Source of the DNA: Novosphingobium sp.
GTDB taxonomy: Bacteria > Pseudomonadota > Alphaproteobacteria > Sphingomonadales > Sphingomonadaceae
Length of the DNA stretch: 64,000 nt
Reading direction: 5' to 3'
Assembly: GCA_046290865.1 (NCBI GenBank)
Contig: JBKBUD010000003.1
Coordinates: 8,600-72,599, forward strand
Shown piece after piece: positions 14,095-40,895 of the stretch (position 1 is the stretch's first letter; every line of letters starts with the position of its first letter). The position numbers were made by a program, and so were the translations under genes. The notes beneath the pieces are model-generated. The model saw only the letters and a list, made by a program, of their open reading frames with translations, had not been told where the DNA came from and ran no database searches.

Positions 14095-14103
14095 GACCTT
14101 GCG

Positions 14104-14847: not shown

Positions 14848-14863
14848 TGTGCCAAACGGCACA
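14848..14863. promoter_or_regulatory. CRP-family-like palindrome TGTGC-N6-GCACA upstream of the CHAT/CHASE2/TPS operon
   Basis: TGTGCCAAACGGCACA is a perfect 6-bp inverted repeat with the TGTG-N8-CACA geometry of CRP boxes, ~90 bp before the ATG. Confidence 0.4.
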
Positions 14864-14955: not shown

Positions 14956-17900
14956 ATGCGTGACCGTCAGGCAGGACATTGGGCAAGGCTCGGCGCGGGT
15001 GTTGCGGGAATTGCTCTGATGCTGGGGGCAACCTGTGGCTCTGCCGCAGCCAGAGAGGAATCGCTGCTTCTGCGCGATAGCTTTCCGCTCGGCGCAGGCG
15101 GCAGCAAGGCCCTGTGTCAGGTGCAATCCCGCACCGTCGATCCCGCCAACAGCAATCCGATGGACCGGACGTGGGCCATCGTATGCCGCGATTCCGCGCT
15201 GCCTGTCGGCTATGTCTTCGCCCTGCGCCACGGCCAGGACGATGAACTGGCGCGGCTTGCGCAGCGGCGTGGGGACAAGGTGAACTGTGCTAGCAAGACC
15301 GCCGCCTCCGTCGGTGGACGAATGCGGCAGGAGTGTCGCTGGAAGGACCCGGACCTCGCCTATGAGGTCGTGAGTGTTGCGCGTGGCAACACGACCTTCG
15401 TCGTCGAGGGCTTCTCTGCCTATCATGGTGCCCTCGATCTCGCCCTGCGCTCGATCTACGCCGATCGCCTGCTCGACGAGCCGATCGAGGTCGCCACGAC
15501 ATCGGTGAACGACACTGAGGCCTATGCGCGTATTCAGGCGCTGACGCTCGATCCGGCAACGGCGCTGGCCGAGGGTTACCGCCGCAACAATTCCGGCGAC
15601 TATGCTGAAGCCGCTGCCTACTTCGAGACGCTCGACCAGCGTCAGGCCTCGACCGGAGACGTGCCGATCGACCGGGTCGAGTTCCTCGTCAATGCTGGCC
15701 TGCAACGCTCGAACCTCGGTCAGTTTTCCGAGGCAGACCGCCTCTTTGCCGAAGCCGATGCGATGCCGGCAGGCAGCGGTGTAGTGGAGCGTCTGCGGCG
15801 TAACTACGAAGCGATCCACCTGCTCAATCAGGAGTTCTATGCCAAGGCGCTGGAGCGACTTGGCGCGCCGCTGCGCCAGACCAGCGCGATGGGGGCCGAC
15901 AGCTTGCGCGCGACGATGGAACTGACGCCATCGGTTTCCCGCCGGATCAATGCTTCGGACCTTACCGCCAATGCCATGGGCCTGGTCGATGACTTGCGCC
16001 TGACGGACGATGAACGCGCGACCATTCTCGACGCACAGAGCCTGCAATTGCGGGGCACCGCGTTGCGCCTGCTCGGCCAGCGTAGCGATGCCCGCACGGC
16101 TCTCGAACAGGCGCAGGCTCGCGCTCTGGCGGTACGCAACGGGCGGGTCGTGTCCATCGTCCGGATGCGTGCGCAGTTGCTGACTGAACTGGCAACGCTG
16201 GCCGAGGAAGAAGGCCGATTGCCAGATGCCGAGGCGCTGCTGCGCTCGGCGGTCGACATCGTCGGTGTCCAATATCCCGAGACGCGCAGCATGGCGGCAG
16301 CCCAGGCGCGGCTGGCGGCCTTTCTCGTCCGCCGTGGCCGTCCGGCCGAGGCCGAACCGCTCTATCGCGAAGTGGTGGCGCGTTCGGTGGAGCGGGAGAA
16401 CGGGCTGTCCGGCCTGTCGCGTCAGATGGCGCCATACTTCGATCTTCTGTCTGCGCGCATGGGAGCAGACACGGCAACCAGCGACGCGTTCTTCCAGGCT
16501 TCGCAGGTTCTGGTGCGGCCCGGCGTCGCGGAAACGCAAGCTGTGCTGTCTCGCGAACTTTCGGGTGGAAGCGACGAAGCTGCAAGGCTTTTCCGCCAAT
16601 CGAACAGCCTGACTCGTGCTGTCGAGAGGGCGCGCATGACTTATGCGGCGCTCCAGCGGCTCGATGACGCTGCCGCGCGGACCGACGAGATTGCCGAAGC
16701 GGCCAAGCGCGTCGCGGATCTTGAGGCGCAGGAGCAGGCAACGGTCATCGATCTTGCCAACCATGCGCGCTATCGCGTTGTTACGCAGAGGGTAATTGGC
16801 CAGAAGGAACTTCAGGAGGGCCTTGGCGCGGGCGAGGTCTATGCCAAGATGGCGGTCCTTGGCCCTGATGTGTTCGTGTTCTTTGCGGGCAAGGACAAGG
16901 CGGTGGGCTACCGCGCGCCGATCACGGCGGGCGAACTGGAAAAGTCCGTGCAAGCCGTTCGGGACTCGATTTCGCGCTTCGATGGCAAGCAGTATGTTAC
17001 CGGCACATTTGCCGCGAACGAGGCAGCGGGCATCTTCAAGGCGCTGTTCGGCCCGGTTGCGACTGAACTTGGCGCAGCGCACCATCTGATCTTCGAGCCT
17101 GACGGCGCGATGCTCAAGTTGCCGGTAAATGTGCTGATCGCCGACGAGGCTTCCGCCAAGGCCTATCTGGCGCAGGCAGAGAGCCCAGCGGGAGATCCGT
17201 TCGACCTTCGCGGGGTCAACTGGCTGGCGAAGGACAAGATCGTTTCCACCGCAGTTTCGGCCCGGTCGTTCATGGATGCGCGCAAGCAGCCGGGCTCCAA
17301 GGCTCATGAGGCCTATCTCGGACTTGGGCGCAATGCTGCCGTTTCTGCCACTTCTGCACTGGCAGTCGCCAAAGTGCGCGGCGCAGCGGGTGAGGCCATG
17401 GCGGATTGCAGCTGGCCCTTGGCGACCTGGAACAGACCGATTTCCGAAGCCGAACTGCTCAAGGCGCGCATGTTGCTGTCAGGGCAGGGGACCGACCTGA
17501 TGGTTGGCCCTGCTTTCTCGGATACTGCCATCAAATCACGGGGAGATCTGAACAATTTTCGGATCCTCCACTTCGCCACCCATGGCCTGGTGACGCCCCC
17601 GCAGCCGTCCTGCCCGGCACGTCCGGCTCTGGTGACCTCGTTCGGGCAGCAGGGGTCGGATGGTCTGCTGAGCTTTTCCGAAATATTCGACCTTCGGCTT
17701 GATGCGGACATGGTGATCCTGTCGGCTTGCGATACGGCAGGACAGGCTGACGTTGCAGCAACACGCGACGCGGGGATCGTGACTGGCGGCGGCTCTGCGC
17801 TGGAGGGCCTTGTCCGCGCGTTCATCGGTGCCGGCAGCCGGTCGGTGCTGGCCAGTCACTGGCCCGCTCCGGACGATTTCGATGCAACGGCGCGGCTGAT

Positions 17901-18123: not shown

Positions 18124-18126
18124 CGC

Positions 18127-20172
18127 ATGGCACGTGACGACCGCGCAGGCCAAGAGGGGCCGCGCGATATCGGACGCAAGGCAAGGCGCGGTCTGGCGCA
18201 ACTGGGTTGGCAGCGCTCCCTTGTTGCCGTGGTTCTGGTGGCCTTTGCGCTGTTTATCGCCTTCAACAGCTGGCGCTTGCCGCTGCTGCGGGATGCAGAA
18301 GCCGCACTCTATGATCTGCGCGCGGCAAATTTTGCGCCGCCGACCGATACCGACAAGCGCGTCACGCTCGTGGTCTACACGGCCGACACCAACCGCGCGA
18401 CTGGCCAGATATCGCCGGTCGATCGCACGATCCTAGCCAAGGCTCTGACCCAGATCGACCAGTTGGGCGCTAAGGGCATTGGCATCGACGTGCTGTTCGA
18501 CAGCCCGCAGGACGATGACGATCTGCTGCGCGCTTCGCTCAAGGCAATGCACACACCGGTGTTCCTCGCATTTGCCAACAACCGAACTAATCCCGAAGCG
18601 ATCACCTACGAGCAGGAGCAGGACCTCAAGGCTTTTCTGAAGAGCGCGGCGACAGACAGGGTCAAGCCTGCCTCGATCCTGCTGGAGACTGATGCCGATG
18701 GCGTGGCGCGTCGCTGGCCGAGGCAATATGCCGGGTTGCCGCCCTTGCTCTCGGTCGCGCTGACCAATGGAAGCGCCGATGCCGAGCCGCGTTTTGCCGC
18801 GTACACCGGCCCCATCCGCTATCGTGTGCCTTCGGCCAGCGATCGCCCGGTGTTCGACAAGATCCCGATCGATCTCGTTGCTGATCCCGATACTGCGCCT
18901 CTCGTCGCTGACGCGATAAAGGGGCGTTACGTGCTGATCGGTGGCGACTTTTCGGACTTTGACCAGTTCGATACGCCGTTTACCCGCACCGGCAATCCGG
19001 TCACGGGCGAGACGCGCATGATCGGGGTAGAGGTCCACGCCTCGATGCTCGCGCAGTTGCTCGACAAGGCCTGGAAGGAACGACCGGCGGTCTCGCTCAA
19101 GGTCATCGCCGCGGTTCTTGCCGTGGCGCTTGGCGCGGCCACTGCAATAGCGCAAGCGAGGACCTGGGTTCTGGTGCTTTGCGTTCTGGCCCAATTCGCA
19201 CTGTTCCTGTCAGTTCCCTTCATGGTCGAGCGTGCGGGCTACGATACCCTCGACATGCCCGCCACTGGCTGGCTGATCGGCTGGCTCATTGCCTACACCG
19301 CGATCAGCTCAGGCCTCAGGGCGATCAACGCCGCCCAGCGCGAGTTCGCGCAAGGTGCGCTGGGCAAGTATCTGCCGCGCTCGGTCGCGGCCGAGATCAT
19401 GCGCAACCCCGAACGGCTGTCGCTGCACGGTGAAAAACGCGAAATCTTCTGCCTGTTCAGTGACCTCGAGGGGTTCACCAAGCTCACCCATGCGGTTGAG
19501 CCGGAGATGATTGCGCGTCTGCTCAATGAATATCTCGACCGGCTGAGCGCGGTGGTGCTGCAGTACGGCGGCACGCTCGACAAGTTCGTGGGCGATGCGG
19601 TGGTCGCCTTCTGGGGGGCGCCGATTGCTTATCCCGATGACGGCGAGCGTGCGGTCAAAGCCGCATGGGCAATGTATCTGGCGGGCGAGGAATTCCGCAA
19701 GTCGGTGCCCGAAGGCGTACCGAAGATCGGCAGGACCCGTGTTGGCGTGCACTATGGCGAAGCAGTGGTCGGCAATTTCGGGGGTGAGGGCCGGATCCAG
19801 TACACCGCGCTCGGCGACGCGATGAACACCGCGGCGCGACTGGAAGGGGCGAACAAGCCGCTCGACACCCGGGTGCTGGTCAGTCGCGAGGCCGCGGAAC
19901 GGTCGGGCCTCGACTGGTTCAGGCCGATGGGGTCGGTGACCCTGCGCGGGCGCAAGACCCCGGTCGAGGTGTTCGAGCCGGTCCCTGATCTGGCCGATGC
20001 CCATCGCGCGCTTGCTGACGAGGCGGTCACGGCGCATGCGCTGGGTGACACGGATCGTGTGAAAGCTCTCACAGACACAATCCTCGAATCGGCGCATGAC
20101 GACGATGCGATGATGAACCTGATCCAGAGATTGCGACAGACGCACAAGGGAGAGAGTTATGTTCTTGGTTGA
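18127..20172 (+). CDS. CHASE2-domain class III adenylate cyclase
   Basis: N-terminal TM, CHASE2 (IGIDVLFD...DADGVARR...GVEVHA), three TMs, then FSDLEGFT, DKFVGDA and YTALGDAMNTAARLE. The Lys/Thr specificity residues indicate ATP. Confidence 0.93.
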   Translation: MARDDRAGQEGPRDIGRKARRGLAQLGWQRSLVAVVLVAFALFIAFNSWRLPLLRDAEAALYDLRAANFAPPTDTDKRVTLVVYTADTNRATGQISPVDRTILAKALTQIDQLGAKGIGIDVLFDSPQDDDDLLRASLKAMHTPVFLAFANNRTNPEAITYEQEQDLKAFLKSAATDRVKPASILLETDADGVARRWPRQYAGLPPLLSVALTNGSADAEPRFAAYTGPIRYRVPSASDRPVFDKIPIDLVADPDTAPLVADAIKGRYVLIGGDFSDFDQFDTPFTRTGNPVTGETRMIGVEVHASMLAQLLDKAWKERPAVSLKVIAAVLAVALGAATAIAQARTWVLVLCVLAQFALFLSVPFMVERAGYDTLDMPATGWLIGWLIAYTAISSGLRAINAAQREFAQGALGKYLPRSVAAEIMRNPERLSLHGEKREIFCLFSDLEGFTKLTHAVEPEMIARLLNEYLDRLSAVVLQYGGTLDKFVGDAVVAFWGAPIAYPDDGERAVKAAWAMYLAGEEFRKSVPEGVPKIGRTRVGVHYGEAVVGNFGGEGRIQYTALGDAMNTAARLEGANKPLDTRVLVSREAAERSGLDWFRPMGSVTLRGRKTPVEVFEPVPDLADAHRALADEAVTAHALGDTDRVKALTDTILESAHDDDAMMNLIQRLRQTHKGESYVLG

Positions 20173-20929: not shown

Positions 20930-20932
20930 ATA

Positions 20933-21703: not shown

Positions 21704-21816
21704 GGAAAGTACGTTGACCGGTTTTGCCCGGTTGGATATTTTCTCAAAAATAACAAGGTCTTGTTAGGCCACTGAAGTTAACCGCCACGGGTCGCACCTG
21801 TGGAGATTCGACTAAA

Positions 21817-32700: not shown

Positions 32701-35700
32701 CCGGCACTGCCACGCTTGGCAGCATCAATGCCTCGACCGGAACTGTCGCGATCACGGCGGGAACCCTCTCGTTCGACAACATCCAGTCGCTGACGACAAC
32801 AAGCCTCACAGCTGGCTCGGTCACCGGCAACACGGTCGGTGCAGGAACGGTGCTGACAGTTCGGTCGGCAGGTTCGGTAAATCTCGCAGACGTCACCGCC
32901 GGATCGGTCGATCTCGCCGTGGGCGACCTGCAGATCGGCAGCCTCCTCACCACGAACCTCGCCGCTTTGCGCGCGGACACGATGGCAAACATCGGCACGG
33001 CCAATGTCGGCAGCCTCGATTACCGCGCTGCCTCAGCAAGCTTCGGGACGATCGACACCACTGGGGCTGCGTCGATCATCGGCGGCACCGTTTCGGGCAA
33101 TGCCCTCAACGCTGGCACGCTGCTGTCGATAACGGCAACAGACCTGAATGCGCTGACGCTCGCCGCCAACGGCAACGTCACGCTTGCCGTTACCAACACG
33201 GCAACCCTTGGCACCGTAACTTCGAGCGGCGGTTCGGTCGCGATCGATCCGGCGACATTGACCTTCGATGCTGTCACCGCCTCCGGTGACATTGCGCTGA
33301 GCGGCGGGACGATTACGGGCGGCACCCTTGATGCCGGCGCAAGCATTGGCCTCACGGCGACCGGCGCTCTGACTCTGACCTCGGCAAAGTCGGGGACCAC
33401 ACTGTCGCTCACTGCCGACAGCCTACGGGCAGGTGGTCTTGATGCAGGCAGCGACCTCAATCTTGCGACAACTGCGGACATCACTCTGTCCGACATCGCC
33501 AATGCAGGCGGGGCGGTCCGGGCTACCTTCTCGACATTCGAGTTCGTGGGTCTCAACGCGGGTGGCCTGCTCGATCTTGCCGGGACCGATCTGGTTGGAA
33601 CCAACCTTGGCGGGCCGAGCATCTCGGCAGGCGGGGACGCCAGCATCGCCCTGACTGGCCGCTACGCGGTGACCGGGCTGACCGTGGACGGAAACCTCCT
33701 GTTCGGTGCCCAGACCGCAAGCGGCGCGGCCATCGACGTGATCGGCAATGCCGACCTCAATGTCGCAGGTCTGACCTCGGTTTCCACGTACTTTGCGGGT
33801 GGCACCCTGTCGCTGACCGCTGGCGAGCTTTCGGCACTGGCGCTCAGCGGCGGTAACGTCGATGCGCGCATTGCCGGGGCGGCGACGCTGGATAGCGGCG
33901 ATGCGGGGGCAAACTTCGCCCTCTCGGCAGCTTCGCTCAACGCCGGCACGTTCCGTACAGGTGGCGATCTTTCGCTTTCCACCACCGGCTCGCTGACCAT
34001 TTCGGGAGATGTCAACGCGGCAGGCAACCTTGCGATTGTCGCTGGCGATCTCGATGCCTTCTCGCTCGCCGCTGATGGGGGCATCGACCTGAATGTCAGC
34101 AACAATGCAAATGTCGATTTTGCCGTAGCCGGACAACTTCTGCACGTCGTTGCGGGAGGTCTGTCGCTGCAAAGCCTGTCGGCTGCCGACATCGCGATCG
34201 ATGCGGGTTCGGTGAGCGGCGACGGGGTGAGCGCAGCAAACTCGCTGAGCATCATCTCCACCGGGTTGGTCGATCTCGGCGCTGCCCTTGCCGGCGGCGC
34301 GCTCTCCATCGCCTCGCGCAACCTGACCGCCTCGATCGTGCAATCGCGCGGCGGAAACGTGAGTCTTTCGGTCGGCGCTTTGGCAAATCTGGGCGACGTC
34401 TCCGCTCTGGCTGGAGACATCTCCGCCACGGCGGGCCGCCTGAACTTCGTCTCTGCAAGCGCCAGTGGACAGGTCCAACTCGGCGGTGTCGTGATCGGCG
34501 GGGGCGTCGTGAACGCCGGAACGTCCGCGCTTGTAAGCGCGACGAATTCCATGGTTCTCGATACGATCACCGCAGGAGCAGGCGTCGATCTGAATGGCGG
34601 CGACATCGACATCAACGCGGTGAATGCCGGCACCTTTGCCGACTATGCTGGCCGCGATGTGCGGGTCGGGACAACGAAGGCCGGTACCTTCGCGACAGTC
34701 GCTACCCGCAACTTCGCGTTCGACGCGCTGAGCGCCACCGACAACGTCGGCATACGCACAACACGCGACATTGTCGGCGGCACGATCGATGCCGGGACCA
34801 CTCTCGACATCGACGCAACCGGCGTCGTGTCTCTCGATGTCGCCAGGAGCGGCGATGCCCTGCGTGCCCGGTTCTCCACGCTCGGCTTCAACCTGCTCGA
34901 CGCAGGCGGACGACTTGATCTGGCTGGCACCGATCTCACCGGCACGAACATCGTCGCTGGCGGCAATGCCCTCATCGCACTGACCGGCAGCTATGCGGTC
35001 GGCTCGATCACGGGCGTTGGCCAACTCGATCTCACCGCGAAAAGCGCCAGAAGCAACACGATCGCCATTGATGGCAATGTTTCGCTGACAGTTGCCGACA
35101 CGGCGGCCTTGGGCACGATCACCTCGAACACCGGCTCGGTCACGATCGATCCTGCACTGCTCACCTTCGATGCCATCACCGCGGCGGGCGACATCGCGTT
35201 GAGCGGGGGCACGATCACTGGTGGAACGCTCGAGGCAGGCGCTGCAATCGGGGTGACTGCAAGCGGTGCGCTTACCTTGGCCTCTGCCAAGGCCGGCACC
35301 AACCTTGCGCTCGGCGCGGACACTCTTCAGTCCGGTGCGCTCGACGCAAGTGGCAACATCGCGTTGACTGTTGCGAAGACTGCCGCGCTGACCGGTGTTG
35401 CCAACGCTGGCGCCGATTTCTCGAGCACGGCCGGTTCCCTCGACTTCACCACGATCAATGCCGGCGCGGCTGCCATCTTCGGCGGCGGCTCGATCAATGG
35501 GACACTGGTGGATGCCAAGGGAGCGGTCTCGGCATCGCTCTCGGCCGGCGCGACGCTGGACAGCGTCAACAGCGGTACAACTCTTGCCATCGGTGCGGAC
35601 TCGATCTCGGCAACGACCCTCACCGCAGGAACGGGCCTGTCGCTGTTTGCCAACAAGACGATGGCTATCGGCACAGCGACGGCAGGCGGCGACGCCTCGC

Positions 35701-38700
35701 TCAACGCGGCTTCGATCCAGTTCGACAGCGTTTCCAGCACCGGCCTTGCCGCGATCGCTGGCGGTACTGTCGCTGGTGGCATTCTGGCCGGAACCGGCGG
35801 GATCGACATTGCGGTTACGGGCCCTGTCACGCTGACCAGTGCGACGTCCGGCGCAGGCCTCACCATCGATGCCGCCAGTCTTGTCACGACTTCGCTCACG
35901 GCAGCAGGCGATGCCCGCCTGACTGCGACAGGCAATCTCGATCTTGGCACGACGCAGGCTGGTGGCAGCCTCTATGCCCAAGGTCTCGACCTGTCGTTCC
36001 TGTCGCTCACAGGGCAGACCGTGGAGCTTGCCGGACGAACGATAACCGGCGGCACCATCGACGCTCGCTCGACCCTGCTGGTCCAGGCAGACGGCCTGGC
36101 AAGGCTCGACCGCGCGCAGGCAGGAAGTACCGCGGAATTCTATGTCGGCAGCCTCGAATTGCCGGAAATCTTCGCGGGCGATGTGGCGGTCGGCGCGCGC
36201 GGCCCAGCGAAGCTCGGCAGGATCGACGCAGCAGGAATCGTCAGCATCGCGGCCAATTCGCTCGAGTTTTCGGCAATCAACGCTGCCGGGCCGGCAAGCA
36301 TTTCTGCGGGAAGCATCACCGGTGGCACGATTTCCGGCCGGTTCGGCGTCTCATTGAACTCGGACGGGGCAATCGCGATAAGTTCAGCGCGCGCATCGAG
36401 GTCGTTGACCGTAAGCGGCGCAAGCGTGACTGCCGACAGCCTTTCTAGCGAAGACAGCCTGATTGTTCACGCTACGGGCAATGTTTCGGTCGGGGCGCTA
36501 TATGGTGCATTGGCCGCAGCAATCGACGGGAACGAGATTACTTTCGACATAGCGAGCAGTGACGCAGTTGTCGGCATAACCGGGACTTCGGTCAAAGGCG
36601 GTCGCATCGATACACCCGGCTCGGTTTTCGTCTCCGCAACCGGGAATGTCGCGCTCACCGCAGTCGATGCGGGCTTTGGCGTTCAGATAGCAGCAAATAC
36701 GCTCGATCTGCCATCGTTGCAGGCTGGACGGGACGTGCGGCTAACGATCACCAATACTGCCACGCTTGGCACGGTGACTTCGACCGGCGGTTCCGTCACG
36801 ATCGACCCGACCCTCCTGACGTTCAGCAGCATAACCTCGGCCAATGCCATCAGCCTGTCGGGCGGCACCATCACTGGCGGGACGCTGGATGCGGGCACCA
36901 GCATCGATGTCAACGCGACTGGCAACCTTGTCCTCGACCTGGCCGATGCCGGAACCACGCTCTCGCTGGTCGGCGCAAATGTAGAGGTAGGCTCACTGCT
37001 TTCCGGGGGGAGCAGTTCCGTCTCCGCTCAGGACCTTGTCAGGATCACTAGTGCGATCAATTCGGGTGGCGACATATCGGTCACCGCCGCCCGGTTCACG
37101 ACACCGCTGCTGCAGTCGAACAGCGGAAACGTCTCCCTCACGATCAGTGGTCGGGCGGACCTGACAAACATCATCGCCTTTGGCGGCGATCTCACCATCA
37201 ACGCTGGAACCTTGCGTTTCACTTCTGCGGGCGCACTTGGCGCGGTCAGGCTGGGTGGCGCAGACCTTGCCGGTACGACGGTCACTTCCGGGACCTCCAC
37301 AAACATTGCCGCTGGCACCGTTGCGAACATCGGAACGGTGACCGCAGGATCAAGCGTCACGCTTGGCGGACCCAATGTCACGGTGACCAAGGTTACCGCT
37401 GGCACCTTCGCCGATTTCGACGGCCGGGCGATAAACGTTGCCGAGACGACGGCGGGAACCACCGCTTTCATCGATGCGCGCGACTTCACCTTCAGCAAGC
37501 TCACAGCTGGTGAAAGCGTCGAGATCCTCAGCTCGGGCAATACCACCGGCGGCACGATCGACGCGGGAACGACGCTGAAGATCTCTGCACGCGGTGATGT
37601 AAATCTCGATGATGCCAAGGCAGGCGGTGCGATCACGATCGGCGCGGCGAACATAAATGCGCTGACGATCACCGGCGATGCAGGTCTCTCGCTTACTGCC
37701 ACCAACGCGATCGATCTAGGCACCGTCAAGGTTCTGGGCGCGTTTGACCTCTCCGGTGCGTCGCTCGTCCTGAGCTCCAGCAGTTCGGGCCTCGACAGCA
37801 CTTTCTCGCTCACCGGCAATGCCACGATCGGCACCGTCGCGGCGGGTCTCGCCAGCACCGGTCAGAACCTCGTCCAGGTCGTGGTGCAGGCTCTCGGCAA
37901 CTCCTTCACCGGTGGCACGCTGGTGCCGGTATTCGATGTGGTGCAGGGACAGACGATCACGGTCTCGTCTTCCACCAACGACCTGTGGAGTGCCGGTTTC
38001 CTGCCACGCTTCTCGGACGGCGATGGCCTCATCGCCTTCCGCCTCGCCACGGCGCAGGACGATTCCGGCGTGCAGCCCGGTACCCAGATCGGTGCAGCCT
38101 TCGGAAACCTGACCATCGGCAACTTCAGCGCACCGTTCGGAGCGCTTGTCGGGCAGATCGGCAACCAGAACGTGCTGATCGGCGCCAATGGCACGGTCAC
38201 AGCGCCGGCAACCGGCACCCTCTCGGTCGGCTACTGGGATTCCAACGCGGGTGACAACACCGGCTCCATCGCCTTCACCTTTGGCAATGGCACGGGCGGC
38301 GGCGGCGCCTCGAACCCCGCAAATGTCAGCATCTCGACCGGCGGCAACCTGACGGTCAGCTCGGCCAATGCCAGCAGCGCGATAACGCTCGACGCGGCCG
38401 GCGCGCTCAAGCTCGACAGTGCCGACGCCGGGACCGCCCTGTCCCTGACAGGCAACACGATCGACGCAGGAACACTCAAGGCCGGGACCGACATCACGCT
38501 TGCCAGCACCGGAGCGAGCGTGATCGGCTCGGCAACAGCAGGTGGTCGTTTCTCGGCGGACATCGGCGCGCTCGATTTCACGCTGATCGATGCAGTGGGC
38601 GCGGTCGACATCGCCTCGCTTGCCGGTGTCGGTGGCGGTGACATCCGTTCGGGCGCCAGCATCGTGGTCGATGCTTCTGGTAGTATCACGATCCGGGATG

Positions 38701-40895
38701 CCAGCGCGGCGACCGATCTTGCGCTCACGTCTGGCGCAACGGGTGATATTTCCGCCCGGGCCCTTGCCGCAGGTGGAAGCATCGGCATCGAAGGGCGCGA
38801 CACCACGCTCGGTAGCGCAGCGGCTGGCGGTAATTTCAGCGCTGCGGTCCGCTCGCTCGCGAGCCCGTCGATCACTGCGGGCGCCACCTTCACGGTGTCC
38901 GGCACCGGCGCGGTGGAACTTGGCACAGCAAGCGCGGGCAGTGCGCTCAGCGTGAACAGCCAGACGCTGACCTTCACCCGCATGTCCTCGGGTGGCACGC
39001 TCCTTGTCGGCACCAGTGGCGACGTCAGCGGCGGCGATCTCGTCGCTACCGGAACCATGCGCATCAACACCGGGACTGGCCGCTTCACCTATGGCACTCT
39101 CGACGGCGGCGACATCGCGATCGTCGGCGGTTCGGCGTCCGGTGGCAGCATCCGGGTCCGGGCCGGGGATCTCAATCTCGGCGTTGCTGGAGAGGCGAAT
39201 GTCGGGGCGATCGACGCCAGCGGCAACGTCGCTATCGACGCCCAGCGCCTTGTCTTCAGCACGATTTCGGCCGGCGGCACTTTCGGTACCACCAACCGCT
39301 CGATGACAGGCACCTCGATCTCGGTCGGCAATGACGTTTCCATCTCGAGCCAGGGCGACATTGCGCTCGCGGGCCTGACCGGCGCATCCGCGCAGATCAG
39401 GTCGGCCGGCATCGTCAACATCACGGGCGTGCAACTCTCGGGCGTGATCTCGGTCTCTGCCGATGCTGTCGGCCTCGACGCTCTGGGCGATCTCGCGATC
39501 CGCACCATCGCCGCCGATCGCGGCAATGTCGATGTCACGGCAGAGGGTTCGATCACCGGCAACACCATCAACGCGCTCGGCGACATCAATCTCTTGGCCC
39601 GCAACGGCGATGTCGTGATCAGCCATCTTTCTGCAGGCTACTCGAACGTCTTCGGCGGTTCGGTCCGCCCTCAGGGCACCGTCACCGCCGGGGCCATCGG
39701 CCAAGGCAACATCGATATCGTGGCGAACGGCGATATCGTCATCAACGACGTGGCCGATGCAGCCAAGGCCTTCACCATGAACGCCGGCAACACCATCCGC
39801 ATCAACGGACTGGCGACCGGGGCAACGATGGACCTCACCTCGGCCGATCTCGAGATCGGAGCCAGTGGGCGCCTTGGCGAAGCCGCGCACACCGACGCGA
39901 TCACCCTGCGCAACACCGGCCAGGGACCGCTGCGGCTGGGCGACAACATCGCTTCCACGGTCAGCGGCTATGCCATCTCGCAAGCCGAGTTCGCGCGCAT
40001 CCGCTCGCGCGGTGATCTGACGATCCGGGCGAACCAGGCGCTGCTGGTGGGCGATCTTGCAGTCGTTGCCCAAGCTGGCACGGTGCAGGGACAGATCGGT
40101 GAGAACGGCACCTTGTCATTGCGCTCGGGTAGTCTGGCGAGCTTCCTCGGCGCGCTGTCGATGACCAACGCGGGGGGTAACACCTTGGCCATCAACAGCC
40201 AGAGCGGGGTGTTCCTTGATGCCGCCACGGGCTCGATCCGCCTGCTCGAGGGCACGGTGGGTGGAGGAGCCCTCGCGATTTCCGGAACCGGCATCGCCAT
40301 GGTCACGCGCAGCGCGCTTAATGACATCTCGCAACTGACCGACACCGCCCTGATCACGGATCGTCTCGGCCTCAACGATGGCGTCGCCGATGGCCGGACC
40401 CTGGTCGAGGCCGACACCATCCAGTTGCGTTCCGATCGCGATGTCTACATCCAGAACACCTCGCTAGGCACCAGGCTGGATGACCGCCGCGGCCTGGTCG
40501 CGCGCGCGCTGCGCATCGGCAGCCGCGATGGCAGCCAGCTCGACATCGTGATCAACGGCATCGTCAACGGTCAGGTCGGCGTCGATGCAATCGAGCAGAT
40601 CACCTTCGAGGAAGCCTTCACCGATCTTTCCTCGGTCAACGGCTGCGTGATCGTCAATGCCAACACCTGCAACAAGCTGCCGTTCGAGATCATCGAGCTG
40701 CGCGATCTCGTCGAGGAAGTGCTGAAGAGCGATCCCGAGGACAGCGCGCTGCAGGTGACCGACAGCTTCACCAAGACCACGCTGATCCAGTTGAACCAGA
40801 TCGCACCGGCTGGCTTCGAACCACTGATCGACGAGCCGGTCACCGGCACCGGCAACGACGATCTGCTCGGAGAAGGCAAGCAGGACGGCGAGTGA
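23709..40895 (+). CDS. Giant (5728 aa) filamentous haemagglutinin-like TpsA exoprotein / adhesin
   Basis: Uninterrupted 17.2 kb ORF; signal peptide; TPS-like N-domain (TVLNRV...KVWFYNAGG...FNVGSLVL); Gly-rich tract; long beta-helix-type repeats; coupled to the TpsB gene. Confidence 0.9.
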   Translation: MPRSGPRSGKVSSHTHRKPGVARLLAGVSIGAASLVLAASPLNAQAVNGTPTPQFGIGGISRSTPGLDAVFVTGSEALVDWTASDSGGVFLPEGNTLRFIYDGSAPYTVLNRVTDTAVGGPLSISGTVESSSLGKVWFYNAGGWVVGPKGVFNVGSLVLTSLPIAVDPATDTVSRLYGDKNEIRFGSALDPKSSVTIQSGAQINASLANSSYVALVAPRVEQAGTVSVNGSAAYVAAQAATMTINSGLFDIVVDSGSDDLEGVVHTGTTKWPANASSTDANHRVYLVAVPKNQAMTAVVSGSLGYDGATSASVVDGSIVLSAGYNVIGGDVVSTNPVGGDASLAISGLTVGQKGATTNLTGLATGDVTIDARGSTTSVRGSVDLVARGNISATIDKTNALLVDSDLSLGSLNGAKAGNVSVSVAGGGLLAVGGTLDLYSIATGAIQTDPLNGDALLAASVGEDAVSGNVRLTVNDANFSLGGSALTSIATSGVGELSAGSATSGSVSINIAQTAGATATFGGSLGDVSLYTNAANGTFGPQSPIRGGNSVSGAATLAVNGGIFDATSISLGSDAVTYAGSEAIPLDATAGAVTLSFANANGTFFTGGINAGNFASASDGGIATLGDVSLSYDNVQSATSDSIGSIDLQSFAFGNLVTPNTVSLSLSGGSSLETYDSVVSLFAQGRNSTGAQLAGNVAFLADASTLNAARLDMTSQALGGDSGSDAVGGNVSAILRNGANLALGNLASLRSTARGGNGPDGGNGTGGDVSFTLADSSFTGDLGLSSNGVAGQRSDAGGRSGIGQGGKVSFSQTGKAASFLGNTVTLDSLGQGGRPAISARTGLVAQAGDGAAGVGGDASFSVAEGTFRASSLTVGANGEGGNAQNVAGFAPGTGGSGSGGSAALSVTGGLLTVNTVDVTASGFGGDGAQSSDALGIVGGIGGAGTGGSATVNLTGGTLQTQGLTIEANGNKSQFDGFEFSYFGNGGNDFFGTGAGGAGGVGTGGNALLTVDGGTLGEVTLSSAGLPVTVTVNAIGEGGAGGYAFTMATGAGNRSGAGGDGQGGTAAIRHLSGTLDAQTIGIDATGLGGLPGNDAATVGEFALNAGKGGDGAGGTSTFEIATDFASTTLSGSTRSVDVRADGIGQAGESGLIGGAGGSGTGGTARILATGGNSSLSAPVLSAEGMGKAGGNSTDGYRGGAGGSGTGGQALVAVIGDGTRLGVDNASLRVSGTGGVGGRGGLGSDPVDEAGDGGDGGAGTGGAIGLVASNFGQLSISGTAGSSFAASGTGGKGGLGGNSAFNGWRTLGDGGDGGIGRGGTFDALAESGGTVTFDDLTLTLNGQGGAGGSFASLDVSGTYDQSVGGAGGAGFGGAINLQAVGLDSRLEAPSLVADATGRGGAGVDGFGYAADGSSANGSAGGSATGGNISILADAGGAIALATGDGNVALSANALGGNGGRAFAAITAPTGIGGNGGNGGDSGAGTGGTIAITASDSGNASLGLLGTVTLSANGTGGLAGLGGDGANSTAPVTLGGSGGNNGLANAGRGGAISVGATGATARFGTLAVNATGETFDRPFGGAGGSGTSGLGLPGSSAFVTPSGGTVSFSSADLGTASTGSLVAGDTSVDVTSKRTFPLASGAFIKELGGAISLTSSSTATTDAMRFASFSGNAAGSGAGFSDPAISLTALSGPIAFDGDLTLLSAGAIALSVGDGLTVGAGGAARFVSDTGIDIAATGTGRFSANSIRLETLGSVGITSSSCATATCRPIEAATSLVVDAQGNFAISGPAVVAGLGSLDVYAFGNVTGSANSGYLSNGSLRVRAGSNATIRNASGSSLDLEAGAVPDGVTLYYNGLLTLGEAAGGGAFNATGDIVFASGGGIAVTNGNSFSAGRGIDVRSGNDIVVGQNNSFTANTTATVPGLPVRFAAGSLTLQYSLAPTDIAALSFGSGTTVAAGTGAIAISGAAIDARVASFTGASFRADVLQTLGLASPRRNNSERLDPACLEGAICIGNVDVTGTVRIGNTDTVPLDIRAVGRIAGSDVRLLATGNVTLEGVGRVSQIVASGNLSIRSVSREIALLGGAVVEGGTVRFAAGTNISGTGNITATVDDVGLFAGGDIDAASLTAARELTSDLAAGGVAEGAFSTIGALRVGTLTLGANANITAGKSIEIGALSLGGFSGTLKAGTLLDLGSTTEVQDLSLTAATTVRFTSPSVGGNLAISGQSVSGTSAQADGTLSITSDELTVDQLQSAGDLTLTIANTAALGLVGSTGGSVFIDPATLTFDAITSANAISLAGGTITGGTLDAGTGIDVNASGALTLASAKAGTTLSLVADSLQSGALDAGSNLSLTVTKGATLTGAATSAGDITAGFGTLDFTTLDTAGLVSLEGTDLSGNGITSGTSLTALLTGDYAVTSAEAGTSLALQAATATATSLSAGANLDATVTGLADLAGVTATGDLTLTAGSLLSTTITAGGPVDIGVSGNASVGSASSGTTLTADVGTLDAGDLVAGTVLSLKAATTASITGKAQAGTDATINAASLVGGSFIASGDLGITTTGDASFVDASAGGTLTVSSADLSFNSLAGKTVGVTAANVLGNQIALTDALTINATGNVTLALIGPTAGTVDIKAANLSLDLISAGDLGVDVSGNARLGAVLGSGAVTLSADNLLVDNLSAVGTVSLSGTGINAGTILAESDLGITATADVAIDRAAAGGTLNITAAGLAANTLAAAGDLTLQVTNTAALGTVTSSGGSVVIDPALLTFSAINASGDITLSGGTITGGTLEAGGAIDATATAGLTLTTALSGTTLGLAGANIDAANLTAGTDLTLTATNSINIATAASAPRTLTLSAPDIAFKLLEGGRATLTGGQVTGGDFTGESLSVDITGALALGNAVGDHFDLKAGSIAASSIQGVTSGLGFDVALTATGGITVGSVSSGNDLLISSASLDATTLDAVRSITVNASGTANIGGAVSSLVSITAGNLGLDLVDAKDVTIDVTGTATLGSINASTGTVAITAGTLSFDNIQSLTTTSLTAGSVTGNTVGAGTVLTVRSAGSVNLADVTAGSVDLAVGDLQIGSLLTTNLAALRADTMANIGTANVGSLDYRAASASFGTIDTTGAASIIGGTVSGNALNAGTLLSITATDLNALTLAANGNVTLAVTNTATLGTVTSSGGSVAIDPATLTFDAVTASGDIALSGGTITGGTLDAGASIGLTATGALTLTSAKSGTTLSLTADSLRAGGLDAGSDLNLATTADITLSDIANAGGAVRATFSTFEFVGLNAGGLLDLAGTDLVGTNLGGPSISAGGDASIALTGRYAVTGLTVDGNLLFGAQTASGAAIDVIGNADLNVAGLTSVSTYFAGGTLSLTAGELSALALSGGNVDARIAGAATLDSGDAGANFALSAASLNAGTFRTGGDLSLSTTGSLTISGDVNAAGNLAIVAGDLDAFSLAADGGIDLNVSNNANVDFAVAGQLLHVVAGGLSLQSLSAADIAIDAGSVSGDGVSAANSLSIISTGLVDLGAALAGGALSIASRNLTASIVQSRGGNVSLSVGALANLGDVSALAGDISATAGRLNFVSASASGQVQLGGVVIGGGVVNAGTSALVSATNSMVLDTITAGAGVDLNGGDIDINAVNAGTFADYAGRDVRVGTTKAGTFATVATRNFAFDALSATDNVGIRTTRDIVGGTIDAGTTLDIDATGVVSLDVARSGDALRARFSTLGFNLLDAGGRLDLAGTDLTGTNIVAGGNALIALTGSYAVGSITGVGQLDLTAKSARSNTIAIDGNVSLTVADTAALGTITSNTGSVTIDPALLTFDAITAAGDIALSGGTITGGTLEAGAAIGVTASGALTLASAKAGTNLALGADTLQSGALDASGNIALTVAKTAALTGVANAGADFSSTAGSLDFTTINAGAAAIFGGGSINGTLVDAKGAVSASLSAGATLDSVNSGTTLAIGADSISATTLTAGTGLSLFANKTMAIGTATAGGDASLNAASIQFDSVSSTGLAAIAGGTVAGGILAGTGGIDIAVTGPVTLTSATSGAGLTIDAASLVTTSLTAAGDARLTATGNLDLGTTQAGGSLYAQGLDLSFLSLTGQTVELAGRTITGGTIDARSTLLVQADGLARLDRAQAGSTAEFYVGSLELPEIFAGDVAVGARGPAKLGRIDAAGIVSIAANSLEFSAINAAGPASISAGSITGGTISGRFGVSLNSDGAIAISSARASRSLTVSGASVTADSLSSEDSLIVHATGNVSVGALYGALAAAIDGNEITFDIASSDAVVGITGTSVKGGRIDTPGSVFVSATGNVALTAVDAGFGVQIAANTLDLPSLQAGRDVRLTITNTATLGTVTSTGGSVTIDPTLLTFSSITSANAISLSGGTITGGTLDAGTSIDVNATGNLVLDLADAGTTLSLVGANVEVGSLLSGGSSSVSAQDLVRITSAINSGGDISVTAARFTTPLLQSNSGNVSLTISGRADLTNIIAFGGDLTINAGTLRFTSAGALGAVRLGGADLAGTTVTSGTSTNIAAGTVANIGTVTAGSSVTLGGPNVTVTKVTAGTFADFDGRAINVAETTAGTTAFIDARDFTFSKLTAGESVEILSSGNTTGGTIDAGTTLKISARGDVNLDDAKAGGAITIGAANINALTITGDAGLSLTATNAIDLGTVKVLGAFDLSGASLVLSSSSSGLDSTFSLTGNATIGTVAAGLASTGQNLVQVVVQALGNSFTGGTLVPVFDVVQGQTITVSSSTNDLWSAGFLPRFSDGDGLIAFRLATAQDDSGVQPGTQIGAAFGNLTIGNFSAPFGALVGQIGNQNVLIGANGTVTAPATGTLSVGYWDSNAGDNTGSIAFTFGNGTGGGGASNPANVSISTGGNLTVSSANASSAITLDAAGALKLDSADAGTALSLTGNTIDAGTLKAGTDITLASTGASVIGSATAGGRFSADIGALDFTLIDAVGAVDIASLAGVGGGDIRSGASIVVDASGSITIRDASAATDLALTSGATGDISARALAAGGSIGIEGRDTTLGSAAAGGNFSAAVRSLASPSITAGATFTVSGTGAVELGTASAGSALSVNSQTLTFTRMSSGGTLLVGTSGDVSGGDLVATGTMRINTGTGRFTYGTLDGGDIAIVGGSASGGSIRVRAGDLNLGVAGEANVGAIDASGNVAIDAQRLVFSTISAGGTFGTTNRSMTGTSISVGNDVSISSQGDIALAGLTGASAQIRSAGIVNITGVQLSGVISVSADAVGLDALGDLAIRTIAADRGNVDVTAEGSITGNTINALGDINLLARNGDVVISHLSAGYSNVFGGSVRPQGTVTAGAIGQGNIDIVANGDIVINDVADAAKAFTMNAGNTIRINGLATGATMDLTSADLEIGASGRLGEAAHTDAITLRNTGQGPLRLGDNIASTVSGYAISQAEFARIRSRGDLTIRANQALLVGDLAVVAQAGTVQGQIGENGTLSLRSGSLASFLGALSMTNAGGNTLAINSQSGVFLDAATGSIRLLEGTVGGGALAISGTGIAMVTRSALNDISQLTDTALITDRLGLNDGVADGRTLVEADTIQLRSDRDVYIQNTSLGTRLDDRRGLVARALRIGSRDGSQLDIVINGIVNGQVGVDAIEQITFEEAFTDLSSVNGCVIVNANTCNKLPFEIIELRDLVEEVLKSDPEDSALQVTDSFTKTTLIQLNQIAPAGFEPLIDEPVTGTGNDDLLGEGKQDGE
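30480..36965 (+). repeat. Five dispersed intragenic copies of a ~70-codon repeat
   Basis: (N/D)TA(A/T)LGx(V/I)xSxxGSVxIDPxxLTFxA(I/V)...GGTITGGTL(D/E)AG begins at 30480, 31923, 33195, 35097 and 36753. Confidence 0.85.

What the first reader, a model, noticed from the sequence alone, without database searches (positions are those of the whole stretch)
14956..40895. Candidate trans-envelope signalling system: giant TPS adhesin + periplasmic caspase-like protease + CHASE2 adenylate cyclase
Seen: six co-oriented genes with gaps of 3 bp, overlap, 3 bp, 113 bp and a TGATG overlap. They encode a TPR-CHAT protease with a signal peptide and intact His/Cys dyad, a CHASE2 cyclase with a complete catalytic set, two paralogous exported proteins, TpsB and a 5728-aa TpsA with no toxin/immunity module. 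Every envelope compartment is represented. Established: CHAT domains are caspase/separase-fold proteases usually gated by TPRs; CHASE2 ligands are largely unknown; TPS-CHAT-CHASE2 gene neighbourhoods are recognisable in cyanobacteria and proteobacteria, but I know of no worked-out mechanism. Inference: surface binding by the filament changes its periplasmic tail, activating the protease, which cleaves the small proteins to generate a CHASE2 ligand and raise cAMP.
Basis: partly seen in the sequence, partly recalled or inferred. Interest (0 to 1): 0.86.

Follow-up and report, generated by a model that had tools for sequence, protein, structure and literature searches.

The report
Adhesin, caspase-like protease, cAMP sensor module
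A Novosphingobium genome carries six linked genes (a giant secreted surface fibre, its exporter, an exported caspase-like protease, a membrane cAMP-making sensor and two copies of an unnamed small exported protein) that recur together in many bacteria; no study of the set was found, and it offers a testable lead to what CHASE2 sensors detect.

Summary
Six co-oriented genes at 14956-40895 encode an exported TPR-CHAT protease, a CHASE2 class III cyclase, two 42%-identical exported proteins with no Pfam family, a TpsB, and a 5728-aa divergent TpsA without a toxin end.

The linkage is not chance.
- In 67 Sphingomonadales loci, CHASE2 plus small protein is always present. CHAT and TpsB/TpsA are both present (51) or both absent (16), never one alone.
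- In 28 loci from 26 other Alphaproteobacteria, the small protein sits next to a CHASE2 cyclase in 21-23.
- A caspase-fold protease lies nearby in 14 of those 28, and a giant secreted protein lies directly upstream of CHAT in 5, in several gene orders.
- CHAT paralogues with the same N-terminal region follow other TpsA genes (8 of 8).
- Every CHAT-linked TpsA ends in a proline-rich linker plus a GN-x-x-L-W type tail. Four TpsAs without CHAT lack that tail.

My reading is two coupled units. The TPS fibre and its dedicated periplasmic protease form one; the CHASE2 cyclase and its small partner form the other. The small protein probably bridges them.

This scan already noted the same module in at least 38 other genomes. 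I found no paper on it.

The parts
14819..14848 (+). sigma-70-like promoter match upstream of the CHAT start codon
   Evidence: Consensus scan, 9 of 12 matches. Weak evidence. It lies inside the alternative GTG-14803 reading, so it favours the ATG at 14956, as do orthologue lengths of 1040-1058 aa.
14956..18123 (+). Exported TPR-CHAT caspase-fold protease (1055 aa): signal peptide, beta-rich N-domain with invariant Cys54/77/127 (aa ~42-153), TPR-like helical solenoid (aa ~187-600), CHAT domain (aa ~616-1030)
   Evidence: Pfam CHAT 4.2e-48. The AF2 model (pLDDT 72) best matches Csx29 TPR-CHAT, DdvA and separase (Foldseek E 2e-9 to 1e-7).
17569..17736 (+). Catalytic dyad region: HFATHG (His876) and LSACDT (Cys925)
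   Evidence: Both motifs are invariant in 30 orthologues and in 16 orthologue/paralogue CHAT domains.
18127..20172 (+). CHASE2 class III adenylate cyclase (681 aa): TM1 about aa 26-54, periplasmic CHASE2 aa 42-331, TM cluster about aa 319-368, cyclase aa 438-610
   Evidence: Pfam CHASE2 1.2e-27 and Guanylate_cyc 8.2e-15. Hydrophobic segments. Catalytic motifs FSDLEGFT, LDKFVGD and GDAMNTAARLE are conserved. It is the only CHASE2 gene found in this 78%-complete assembly.
20159..20929 (+). Small exported protein A (256 aa). This is the copy orthologous to the single gene of other genera. It overlaps the cyclase stop by 14 bp.
   Evidence: No Pfam or NCBIfam family. Family alignments A1 and A4. 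It is closer than copy B to the single-copy orthologues.
20492..20512 (+). RTGAVRG motif in the disordered linker of small protein A
   Evidence: R-x-G-A-V-R is invariant in 35 family members and kept in all 38 small proteins of CHAT-less loci. The G..R core is conserved family-wide. The linker has low pLDDT in the model of paralogue B.
20933..21703 (+). Small exported protein B (256 aa), a paralogue 42% identical to A
   Evidence: BLASTP 1e-47. AF2 model pLDDT 80: N-terminal beta domain aa 29-80, linker, beta-sandwich aa 128-214 plus two helices, with Cys138 and Cys235 invariant.
21248..21268 (+). RAGAVRG motif in the linker of small protein B
21714..21742 (+). Terminator-like hairpin with T-run, overlapping a promoter-like match, in the 113-bp gap before tpsB
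   Evidence: Consensus scan. It suggests, weakly, two transcription units: CHAT-cyclase-A-B and TpsB-TpsA.
21817..23709 (+). TpsB outer-membrane transporter (630 aa)
   Evidence: Pfam ShlB 7.5e-21 and POTRA_2 3e-8. Its stop overlaps the tpsA start (TGATG).
23709..40895 (+). Giant TpsA (5728 aa; 54% Gly+Ala+Thr+Ser), with no toxin end
   Evidence: No Pfam family. Composition and three close Cys pairs. Orthologues in Sphingobium, Parasphingorhabdus and Blastomonas are about 2100-2600 aa.
23856..24698 (+). Divergent TPS secretion domain (VLNRV ... FYNAGG in place of the NPNG motif)
   Evidence: TIGR01901 at 22.5 bits is below its cut-off. A profile of 21 orthologues matches the HxuA TPS domain 4i84, E 1.6e-6.
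40638..40670 (+). Conserved C-terminal Cys loop NGC-x7-C of TpsA
   Evidence: Conserved in Sphingobium, Parasphingorhabdus and a third TpsA paralogue family.
40821..40868 (+). Conserved extreme C-terminal tail motif PLIDEPVTGTGNDDLL of TpsA
   Evidence: Conserved across genera. Variants of a GN-[DEP]-[AD]-L-[WFLI] tail after a Pro-rich linker end every CHAT-linked giant protein examined. The tail is absent from four TpsAs without CHAT in the same genomes.

Best explanation
The six genes form one conserved envelope module built from two coupled units.

Unit 1 is a two-partner secretion system with its own periplasmic protease. TpsB exports the 5728-aa TpsA fibre. Its C-terminal Cys loop, linker and conserved GN-x-x-L-W type tail are proposed to stay on the periplasmic side, as in CdrA and FhaB. 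The exported TPR-CHAT protein is proposed to dock on that tail through its TPR solenoid and to be the system's protease.

Unit 2 is a sensor. The CHASE2 adenylate cyclase works with the small exported protein (duplicated here) as its periplasmic partner.

The small protein is the probable bridge between the units. It has a retention-module-like N-domain, a disordered linker with an invariant Arg motif, and a DUF928/DUF4384-like beta-sandwich. I propose that the CHAT protease cuts it in that linker when the state of the fibre's tail changes. The cut would change what the CHASE2 domain sees and so change cAMP synthesis.

Shown here: the gene content, the intact catalytic residues, the co-inheritance of the parts, and the CHAT-specific TpsA tail. 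Inferred: the periplasmic location of the tail, TPR-tail docking, cleavage of the small protein (or of the tail), and the direction of signalling.
For: Co-inheritance in Sphingomonadales. At one fixed chromosomal site (cobT-nitroreductase ... cysS), 51 of 67 loci carry CHAT-CHASE2-small-TpsB-TpsA and 16 carry only CHASE2-small, with none discordant. CHAT and TpsB/TpsA lie on opposite sides of the retained pair, so each loss needed two deletions. At least 2 such co-losses map on the tree. A Sphingobium megareplicon carries the same five genes in a different context.

Outside Sphingomonadales. The small family occurs in 28 of 401 sampled Alphaproteobacteria, in 23 genera. It is adjacent to a CHASE2 cyclase in 21-23 of 28 fetched loci. 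CHAT (10) or Peptidase_C14 (4) lies within the fetched stretch in 14 of 28, in several gene orders. A giant TPS/MBG_2/DUF5649 protein lies directly upstream of CHAT in 5.

CHAT-TPS tie. Eight of 8 CHAT paralogues sharing this N-terminal region lie directly downstream of another 2110-2519-aa TpsA, without CHASE2.

Tail motif. It is present in all CHAT-linked giant proteins and absent from 4 TpsAs that have no CHAT on the contig.

Small protein and protease. A small-Peptidase_C14 lipoprotein-small triad exists without CHASE2 in the 10 kb upstream and 1.6 kb downstream that the contig allows. The N-domain resembles 5ix9, the template for the LapA retention module that precedes the LapG cut site (Z 8.0 over 65 residues; 10.1101/198937). 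DUF928, which has an R-x-GGGVRG motif, occupies the same position in CHAT/CHASE2/TpsB clusters of other Pseudomonadota.

Catalysis and fold. The His/Cys dyad is invariant, and the model matches Csx29, DdvA and separase.

Precedents. LapG cuts the periplasmic tail of the TpsA CdrA (PMC5422565). Separase cuts after Arg, and the periplasmic TPR-CHAT of DdvA is proposed to cut a flexible linker on a signal (PMC11506125).
Against: No biochemical or expression data exist for any member.

CHASE2-small pairs occur with no protease gene nearby: 16 Novosphingobium loci, and about 8 of 28 distant loci with none within 10 kb. A protease encoded beside the pair is therefore not obligatory. The five Novosphingobium genomes checked do hold 1-4 other CHAT genes elsewhere.

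TpsB-TpsA-CHAT operons occur without CHASE2, so the two units can work apart.

The co-loss count is small (2-3 events; sign test not significant). Most other counts come from related genomes and from home-made HMMs, only part of which were cross-checked with Pfam.

Homology of the small protein to FecR or DUF928 could not be shown. The 5ix9 match is at a Z level where small beta domains can match by chance. The periplasmic location of the TpsA tail is assumed by analogy.
Confidence: 0.45

Rival explanations
1. Two independent systems that are merely neighbours or co-regulated. TPR-CHAT only matures or releases its TpsA, like LapG with CdrA or the proteases acting on the FhaB prodomain. CHASE2 plus small protein is a separate envelope sensor whose cAMP output may at most control transcription of the adhesin genes. 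No signal passes from fibre or protease to cyclase.
For: Each unit occurs alone: TpsB-TpsA-CHAT without CHASE2, and CHASE2-small without CHAT/TPS. A terminator-like hairpin and a promoter-like site separate the two halves in the window.
Against: The units are found together in many families and in different gene orders, and in a different genomic context in Sphingobium. The small protein also pairs with caspase-fold proteases where no CHASE2 gene lies within the fetched stretch. In the window CHAT is encoded with the cyclase, not with the TPS genes. With DUF928 in place of the small protein, the same combination recurs in other Pseudomonadota.
Confidence: 0.3
2. Inside-out or gating control. 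The CHASE2 periplasmic domain together with the small protein holds or releases the CHAT protease, as LapD does with LapG. Release of the fibre would then depend on what the sensor detects, and cAMP would be a parallel output rather than the end point.
For: Same gene associations as above. There is a precedent in LapD sequestering LapG (10.1101/198937; PMC5422565). TPR-CHAT proteases are generally held inactive until a partner changes (PMC11506125).
Against: The cyclase has no cyclic-nucleotide-binding or other cytoplasmic input domain, so there is no route for an inside signal. CHAT paralogues work with TpsAs without any CHASE2 gene nearby.
Confidence: 0.12
3. The TpsA is a contact-dependent inhibition or other toxin-delivery protein, and the other genes serve toxin processing.
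For: Giant TpsA with a TpsB. Proteases are used to release toxins in some polymorphic toxin systems (from my own knowledge).
Against: No toxin family matches the last 833 aa. There is no room for an immunity gene, because cysS starts 38 bp after the stop. The C-terminus is conserved across genera rather than variable.
Confidence: 0.03

Closest known systems
Pseudomonas aeruginosa CdrA/CdrB with the periplasmic protease LapG and inner-membrane LapD (and LapA/LapE/LapG/LapD of P. fluorescens)
   Same: A giant surface adhesin, which is a TpsA in the CdrA case, keeps a tail in the periplasm. A periplasmic cysteine protease cuts that tail. An inner-membrane second-messenger protein is part of the circuit (PMC5422565; 10.1101/198937). 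The small protein's N-domain resembles the fold used to model the LapA retention module, which is followed by a flexible linker carrying the cut site.
   Different: The protease here is a TPR-CHAT caspase-fold enzyme, not LapG (pfam06035). The membrane protein is a CHASE2 adenylate cyclase that makes cAMP, not a c-di-GMP receptor. An extra small periplasmic protein is present. The likely direction of signalling is outside-in. No lapG or lapD gene lies in the cluster.
Sinorhizobium meliloti NsrA with the CHASE2 adenylate cyclases CyaK, CyaD1 and CyaD2 (Clr pathway)
   Same: This is the only studied case of signalling across the envelope to CHASE2 cyclases. An outer-membrane-associated protein is needed for a peptidic signal to raise cAMP (PMC7529298; PMC13001267). 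nsrA is start-stop coupled to cyaK. NsrA contains TPRs and an outer-membrane barrel, parts that are also present here on separate proteins. The Clr-target study places a FecR-domain protein (SMc02177) and a periplasmic protein of unknown function (SMc02178) in the same pathway as CyaD1 (PMC5498481).
   Different: NsrA is one 1190-aa FecR-TPR-barrel protein. There is no CHAT, no TpsA and no member of the small family. The small protein shows no detectable FecR similarity.
[quoted passage not shown]
   Same: It is the only characterised periplasmic TPR-CHAT, and it is proposed to cut a flexible linker upon a signal and so pass information across the inner membrane (PMC11506125). It is among the best structural matches of the CHAT model (8rot/8rw5, E 3-5e-9).
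   Different: DdvA is membrane-anchored and fused to its own signalling domain, acts on an ECF sigma factor, and serves phage defence. Here CHAT is a soluble exported protein tied to a TPS adhesin and a cyclase.
Bordetella FhaB/FhaC
   Same: A TpsA with a C-terminal part that includes a proline-rich region and a conserved extreme C-terminus, stays in the periplasm and is removed by proteases. These FhaB details are from my own knowledge. PMC5422565 covers SphB1 maturation and DegP degradation.
   Different: The FhaB proteases are not CHAT enzymes and are not encoded in the operon. No cyclase or small partner is involved.
FecR/LysM protein with CHASE2 histidine kinase operons (Burkholderia 'BiofilmReg', P. 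aeruginosa homologue)
   Same: A CHASE2 sensor is encoded next to a small exported partner protein, and the operon controls biofilm formation (PMC5192318).
   Different: The output is a histidine kinase. The partner is a LysM-FecR protein. There is no protease and no TPS system.
Type III-E CRISPR craspase (Csx29 TPR-CHAT cutting Csx30)
   Same: Same TPR-CHAT architecture (best Foldseek matches). The protease is switched on by a partner and cuts a small regulatory protein to pass on a signal (PMC11506125 summarises this).
   Different: It is cytoplasmic, RNA-guided and serves defence.

Membership tests
Two-partner secretion (type Vb) | TpsB: Omp85-type barrel with ShlB-type POTRA domains | tested here: met
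   Pfam ShlB 7.5e-21 and POTRA_2 3e-8, both above cut-off.
Two-partner secretion (type Vb) | TpsA: N-terminal TPS secretion domain after a signal peptide | tested here: met
   Pfam TPS gives no hit, and TIGR01901 at 22.5 bits is below its 29.1 cut-off. A profile of 21 orthologues matches the TPS domain of HxuA (4i84), E 1.6e-6, over the NRV ... NPNG-equivalent core. The domain is divergent but present.
Two-partner secretion (type Vb) | tpsB and tpsA adjacent and co-inherited | tested here: met
   TGATG overlap. The two are present or absent together in 67 loci.
CHAT / clan CD caspase-fold protease | CHAT domain with a conserved His-Cys dyad | tested here: met
   Pfam CHAT 4.2e-48. His876 and Cys925 are invariant.
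CHAT / clan CD caspase-fold protease | TPR-CHAT fold like separase, Csx29 and DdvA | tested here: met
   The AF2 model (pLDDT 72) matches Csx29, DdvA and separase chains at Foldseek E 2e-9 to 1e-7. Global TM scores are low (0.2-0.4) because of domain orientation.
CHAT / clan CD caspase-fold protease | Proteolytic activity and a defined substrate | not testable with these tools
   Needs biochemistry.
CHASE2 class III adenylate cyclase | TM-CHASE2-TM topology with a cytoplasmic cyclase domain | tested here: met
   Pfam CHASE2 aa 42-331 and Guanylate_cyc aa 438-610. Hydrophobic segments at aa 26-54 and aa 319-368.
CHASE2 class III adenylate cyclase | Two metal-binding Asp, Lys/Asp adenine-specifying pair, Asn/Arg transition-state residues | tested here: met
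   F-x-D-x-x-GFT, DK-x-x-GD and GD-x-x-N-x-A-x-RLE are conserved at 95% or more in 14-23 sequences. Assignment of roles is by comparison with class III cyclases from my own knowledge.
FecR domain (PF04773) for the small proteins | Sequence match to the FecR profile | tested here: not met
   No Pfam hit even at E 10. hhalign against the NsrA FecR region gave probability 0.8%. The Atlas fold match to a FecR cluster was weak, TM 0.35/0.25.
DUF928 (PF06051) for the small proteins | Sequence or profile match to DUF928 | tested here: inconclusive
   No Pfam hit. hhalign A1 against two DUF928 proteins gave probability 0.5%. Even so, DUF928 holds the same position in CHAT/CHASE2/TpsB clusters, has an R-x-GGGVRG motif before a beta-sandwich, and DUF928/DUF4384 clusters are among the nearest Atlas folds, TM 0.38-0.44.
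Lap-type adhesin control (LapG/LapD) | LapG (pfam06035) protease and LapD c-di-GMP receptor | tested here: not met
   None of the six proteins matches these families. The resemblance is functional only.
CDI / polymorphic toxin TpsA | Variable C-terminal toxin domain plus an adjacent immunity gene | tested here: not met
   No family matches the last 833 aa. The C-terminus is conserved across genera. cysS follows after 38 bp.

The most novel reading that the evidence does not exclude
The module is a previously undescribed signalling route from the surface to the cytoplasm. The mechanical or binding state of a two-partner-secreted fibre is read in the periplasm by a TPR-CHAT caspase-like protease docked on the fibre's conserved C-terminal tail. 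The protease cuts the small protein (DUF928-like) after the invariant Arg of its linker. The cut protein is the long-sought natural ligand or co-receptor of the CHASE2 domain, switching cAMP synthesis. This would be a bacterial 'caspase cascade' for surface sensing.
Probability: 0.3. Interest if true: 0.9.

Novelty: new variant of a known kind. Interest (0 to 1): 0.72.

Why it matters
Pfam's own entry, as quoted in PMC5192318, says the factors sensed by CHASE2 domains are unknown. Soluble exported CHAT proteases have no known substrate, and neither DUF928 nor this small-protein family has a function.

This module puts all of them in one conserved genetic unit with a giant adhesin. That yields concrete candidates that can be tested: a partner or ligand for CHASE2 (the small protein), substrates for a periplasmic caspase-like enzyme (the small protein's Arg linker and the TpsA tail), and a recognisable tail motif that marks the TpsA fibres under CHAT control.

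If the parts are wired as proposed, it would be a new way for Gram-negative bacteria to turn surface contact into a cAMP signal. It would parallel the c-di-GMP/LapG system but use unrelated parts.

Tried and rejected
- Complex prediction of the CHASE2 periplasmic domain (aa 50-325) with small protein A (aa 30-250), both as alignments, gave no verdict (score 0.02). It says nothing either way.
- Pfam and NCBIfam scans of the small proteins and of ten family representatives found nothing.
- Foldseek of the small-protein model against the PDB gave only low-TM cupredoxin-like matches (TM about 0.2). They are not informative for a two-domain model.
- hhalign of the small family against the NsrA FecR region and against DUF928 was not significant.
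- The RxGAVR motif persists in loci without CHAT. I first took this as evidence against cleavage. I dropped that argument after finding other CHAT paralogues in those genomes.
- Tandem Repeats Finder and a BLASTP self-comparison found no repeats in TpsA under the settings used, so I make no statement about how the extra length arose.
- A 301-genome CHASE2 scan showed the domain in 190 genomes. Its match list was truncated, so I did not use it for adjacency statistics.
- The homologue search with the CHAT protein returned only Sphingomonadales orthologues among the 120 listed.
- Paper searches pairing CHASE2 or 'CHAT domain' with two-partner secretion terms found no paper holding both. DUF928 appears in only one unrelated paper.
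- The NsrA paper (PMC5952392) is not held.
Full report
**1. What is in the window**

Six + strand ORFs fill 14956-40895. The junctions are a 3-bp gap, a 14-bp overlap, a 3-bp gap, a 113-bp gap and a TGATG stop/start overlap. The flanking genes are housekeeping: cobT and two nitroreductases upstream, cysS 38 bp downstream.

Pfam gives these assignments:
- CHAT (4e-48) with weak TPR hits for the 1055-aa first protein.
- CHASE2 (1e-27) plus Guanylate_cyc (8e-15) for the second.
- ShlB plus POTRA_2 for the fifth.

The two 256-aa proteins are 42% identical and match no Pfam or NCBIfam family.

The 5728-aa protein has no Pfam hit and only a sub-threshold TIGR01901 match. A profile of 21 orthologous N-termini matches the TPS domain of the TpsA HxuA (4i84, E 1.6e-6). 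It is therefore a real but divergent TpsA. Its last 833 residues match no toxin family.

All five non-membrane proteins begin with signal-peptide-like segments. I judged this by eye.

The CHAT His876/Cys925 dyad is invariant in 30 orthologues and in paralogues. The class III cyclase catalytic motifs are conserved. An AF2 model of the CHAT protein (pLDDT 72) has a beta-rich N-domain, a TPR-like solenoid and a CHAT domain. Its best PDB matches are Csx29, DdvA and separase.

The organism is a Novosphingobium, with closest relative N. taihuense. The assembly is a 78%-complete MAG with one CHASE2 gene and three CHAT genes.

**2. Is the linkage real? Sphingomonadales**

I used the small protein as the anchor and fetched 80 genome loci with 10-kb flanks. 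I located homologues of all six proteins and of the flanking genes by tblastn.

The locus sits at one chromosomal site (cobT-nitroreductase ... cysS) in Novosphingobium, Parasphingorhabdus, Sphingorhabdus and Blastomonas. Of 67 loci with enough flank, all have CHASE2-cyclase plus small protein. Fifty-one also have CHAT, TpsB and TpsA; 16 have none of the three; none has CHAT without TPS or the reverse.

CHAT lies upstream and TpsB/TpsA downstream of the retained pair, so each short locus needed two separate deletions. On a cyclase tree this happened at least twice. That is too few events for a significant test, but it is striking because the deleted parts are not contiguous. All other genera carry the full set at this site, so the short form is most simply a loss.

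A 1.28-Mb Sphingobium replicon carries the same five genes in a different neighbourhood.

The second copy of the small gene is found in Novosphingobium and one Sphingorhabdus-type clade. Copy A is the orthologue of the single gene elsewhere.

**3. Beyond Sphingomonadales**

A profile of the small family finds 1592 representatives at 50% clustering. It matches 28 of 401 sampled Alphaproteobacteria genomes, in 23 genera.

I fetched 28 loci from 26 genomes. I annotated them with HMMs built from my own alignments and cross-checked key ORFs with Pfam. The results:
- The small gene is adjacent to a CHASE2 cyclase in 21 loci. The count is 23 if I include two loci where only the genome search scored the small gene.
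- A caspase-fold protease lies within the fetched stretch in 14 loci. Ten are TPR-CHAT. Four are Peptidase_C14, fused to FGE-sulfatase or Sel1/SH3 domains, or standing alone.
- A giant secreted-type protein lies directly upstream of CHAT in five loci. One has a canonical Pfam TPS domain with TpsB, in the order TpsB-TpsA-CHAT-small-cyclase. Two have MBG_2 repeats (one of them with TpsB), one has DUF5649 repeats, and one has no family.

Gene orders differ between families. A metagenomic relative shows small-Peptidase_C14 lipoprotein-small with no CHASE2 in the 10 kb upstream and 1.6 kb downstream that the contig allows.

In other Pseudomonadota, DUF928 takes the place of the small protein: TpsB | CHAT-CHASE2 cyclase-DUF928, CHASE2-DUF928, and TpsB-CHAT-DUF928.

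**4. CHAT belongs to the TpsA**

Five Novosphingobium genomes whose main locus lacks CHAT still hold 14 CHAT genes. Eight of them share the N-terminal region of the window's CHAT. All eight lie directly downstream of another 2110-2519-aa TpsA, with TpsB upstream where visible and no CHASE2 nearby. Of the six with unrelated N-termini, only one has a ShlB-type gene nearby.

Every CHAT-linked giant protein ends the same way, with a Pro- or PT-rich or acidic linker followed by a short tail. The tails are:
- ...PLIDEPVTGTGNDDLL... in the window.
- ...V[AT]GSGNPALIG... in the second paralogue family.
- ...LVGTNNDALFDD... in the third paralogue family.
- ...SSWGNEAFWQ-end and ...GWGNTALWQ-end in distant families.

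Two of the Novosphingobium families also keep an NGC-x(6-7)-C loop before the linker.

The four remaining TpsB loci of the same five genomes encode TpsAs of 2519-4621 aa. These lack this tail and have no CHAT on the contig. The tail is therefore a mark of CHAT-linked TpsAs. By family the sample is small: three or more families with the tail against three without.

**5. The small protein**

The AF2 model of copy B (pLDDT 80) has three parts. An N-terminal beta domain covers aa 29-80. A low-confidence linker carries the invariant R-x-G-A-V-R motif. A beta-sandwich with two helices carries two invariant Cys. Family-wide, the G..R core of the linker motif, the Cys pair and several Trp are conserved.

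The N-domain's best PDB match is 5ix9 (Z 8.0, 65 of 76 residues). That structure is the N-terminal domain of the Marinomonas adhesin and was used as the template for the LapA retention module. In LapA that module is followed by a flexible stretch carrying the LapG cut site (10.1101/198937).

The nearest Atlas folds of the C-domain include DUF4384 and DUF928 clusters (TM 0.38-0.44). DUF928 proteins carry R-x-GGGVRG just before their beta-sandwich. Sequence homology to FecR or DUF928 could not be shown.

**6. Interpretation**

Shown: the six genes are a conserved module made of a TPS-plus-CHAT unit and a CHASE2-plus-small unit. Each unit also occurs alone. The small protein (or DUF928) is found with CHASE2, with caspase-fold proteases, or with both.

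Inferred:
- The TpsA tail stays periplasmic and is the docking site for TPR-CHAT. This rests on analogy with CdrA-LapG (PMC5422565) and with FhaB (from my own knowledge).
- CHAT cuts the small protein at its Arg linker, the tail, or both. Separase cuts after Arg, and the periplasmic DdvA TPR-CHAT is proposed to cut a flexible linker on a signal (PMC11506125).
- This changes CHASE2-dependent cAMP synthesis. The only studied CHASE2 cyclases, S. meliloti CyaK/CyaD1/D2, need the envelope protein NsrA (PMC7529298). I found NsrA to be a FecR-TPR-barrel protein start-stop coupled to cyaK.

I put 0.45 on this integrated reading, 0.30 on two independent units, and 0.12 on a gating model in which the sensor controls the protease.

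**7. Novelty**

No paper in the held library pairs CHASE2 or 'CHAT domain' with two-partner secretion. The scan's own index holds 47 earlier notes in at least 38 genomes on the same combination, including DUF928 versions in cyanobacteria. These are unchecked AI notes. They agree with what I tested here.

Specific to this window and session:
- The duplicated small gene.
- A TpsA more than twice the length of those orthologues whose length I could read.
- The paired loss of CHAT and TPS in Novosphingobium.
- The CHAT-specific TpsA tail.
- The small-Peptidase_C14 triads.
- The retention-module-like N-domain.

Noticed in passing
window 47057-57061; L084 22789-25833: In Sphingobium sp. TomTYG65 the CHAT-CHASE2-small-TpsB-TpsA cluster is followed directly by orthologues (59-64% identity) of the window's multihaem cytochrome operon. 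In Novosphingobium that operon lies about 6 kb downstream, after cysS, a 2-hydroxyacid dehydrogenase and a ThDP enzyme, and it is also present in genomes that lack CHAT/TPS. This may be residual synteny or a functional neighbourhood.
   Followed up: partly
L088 8538-10714; L089 363-2539: A metagenomic lineage has two small-family genes flanking a 231-aa Peptidase_C14 lipoprotein (lipobox LLAGC, with His and Cys present). No CHASE2, CHAT or TPS gene lies in the 10 kb upstream and 1.6 kb downstream that the contig allows.
   Followed up: partly
L118 5489-7390; L124 about 5500-7400: A Peptidase_C14 domain fused to an FGE-sulfatase (formylglycine-generating enzyme-like) domain is encoded just upstream of CHASE2 cyclase-small in two related genomes. 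In L120 a Sel1-SH3-Peptidase_C14 protein is in the same neighbourhood.
   Followed up: no
G000 contigs C374 (L112) and C311 (L113): The window's own genome has two further CHAT genes. The one on C374 belongs to the paralogue family that follows a second TpsA in other Novosphingobium genomes. The contig is too short to show its neighbours.
   Followed up: partly
window 23709-40895: The TpsA (5728 aa) is more than twice as long as orthologues in Sphingobium (2067 aa), Parasphingorhabdus and Blastomonas (about 2200-2600 aa). It has three close Cys pairs (aa 1758/1763, 2001/2007, 5646/5654). No tandem DNA repeat of period up to 500 was found.
   Followed up: no
L083 4295-9816 (S. meliloti pSymB): The gene start-stop coupled upstream of cyaK encodes a 1190-aa protein with a FecR domain (aa 66-160), TPRs (aa 378-587) and a weak outer-membrane barrel match. 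Its size and position fit NsrA.
   Followed up: partly
L134 9690-13795: In one genome the small-family gene is followed by a 1118-aa YdbH-like (intermembrane phospholipid transport) protein instead of a CHASE2 cyclase.
   Followed up: no
window 12391-14247 (- strand): A 618-aa ORF with no family overlaps the two nitroreductase genes on the opposite strand. It is most likely a spurious high-GC reading frame.
   Followed up: no
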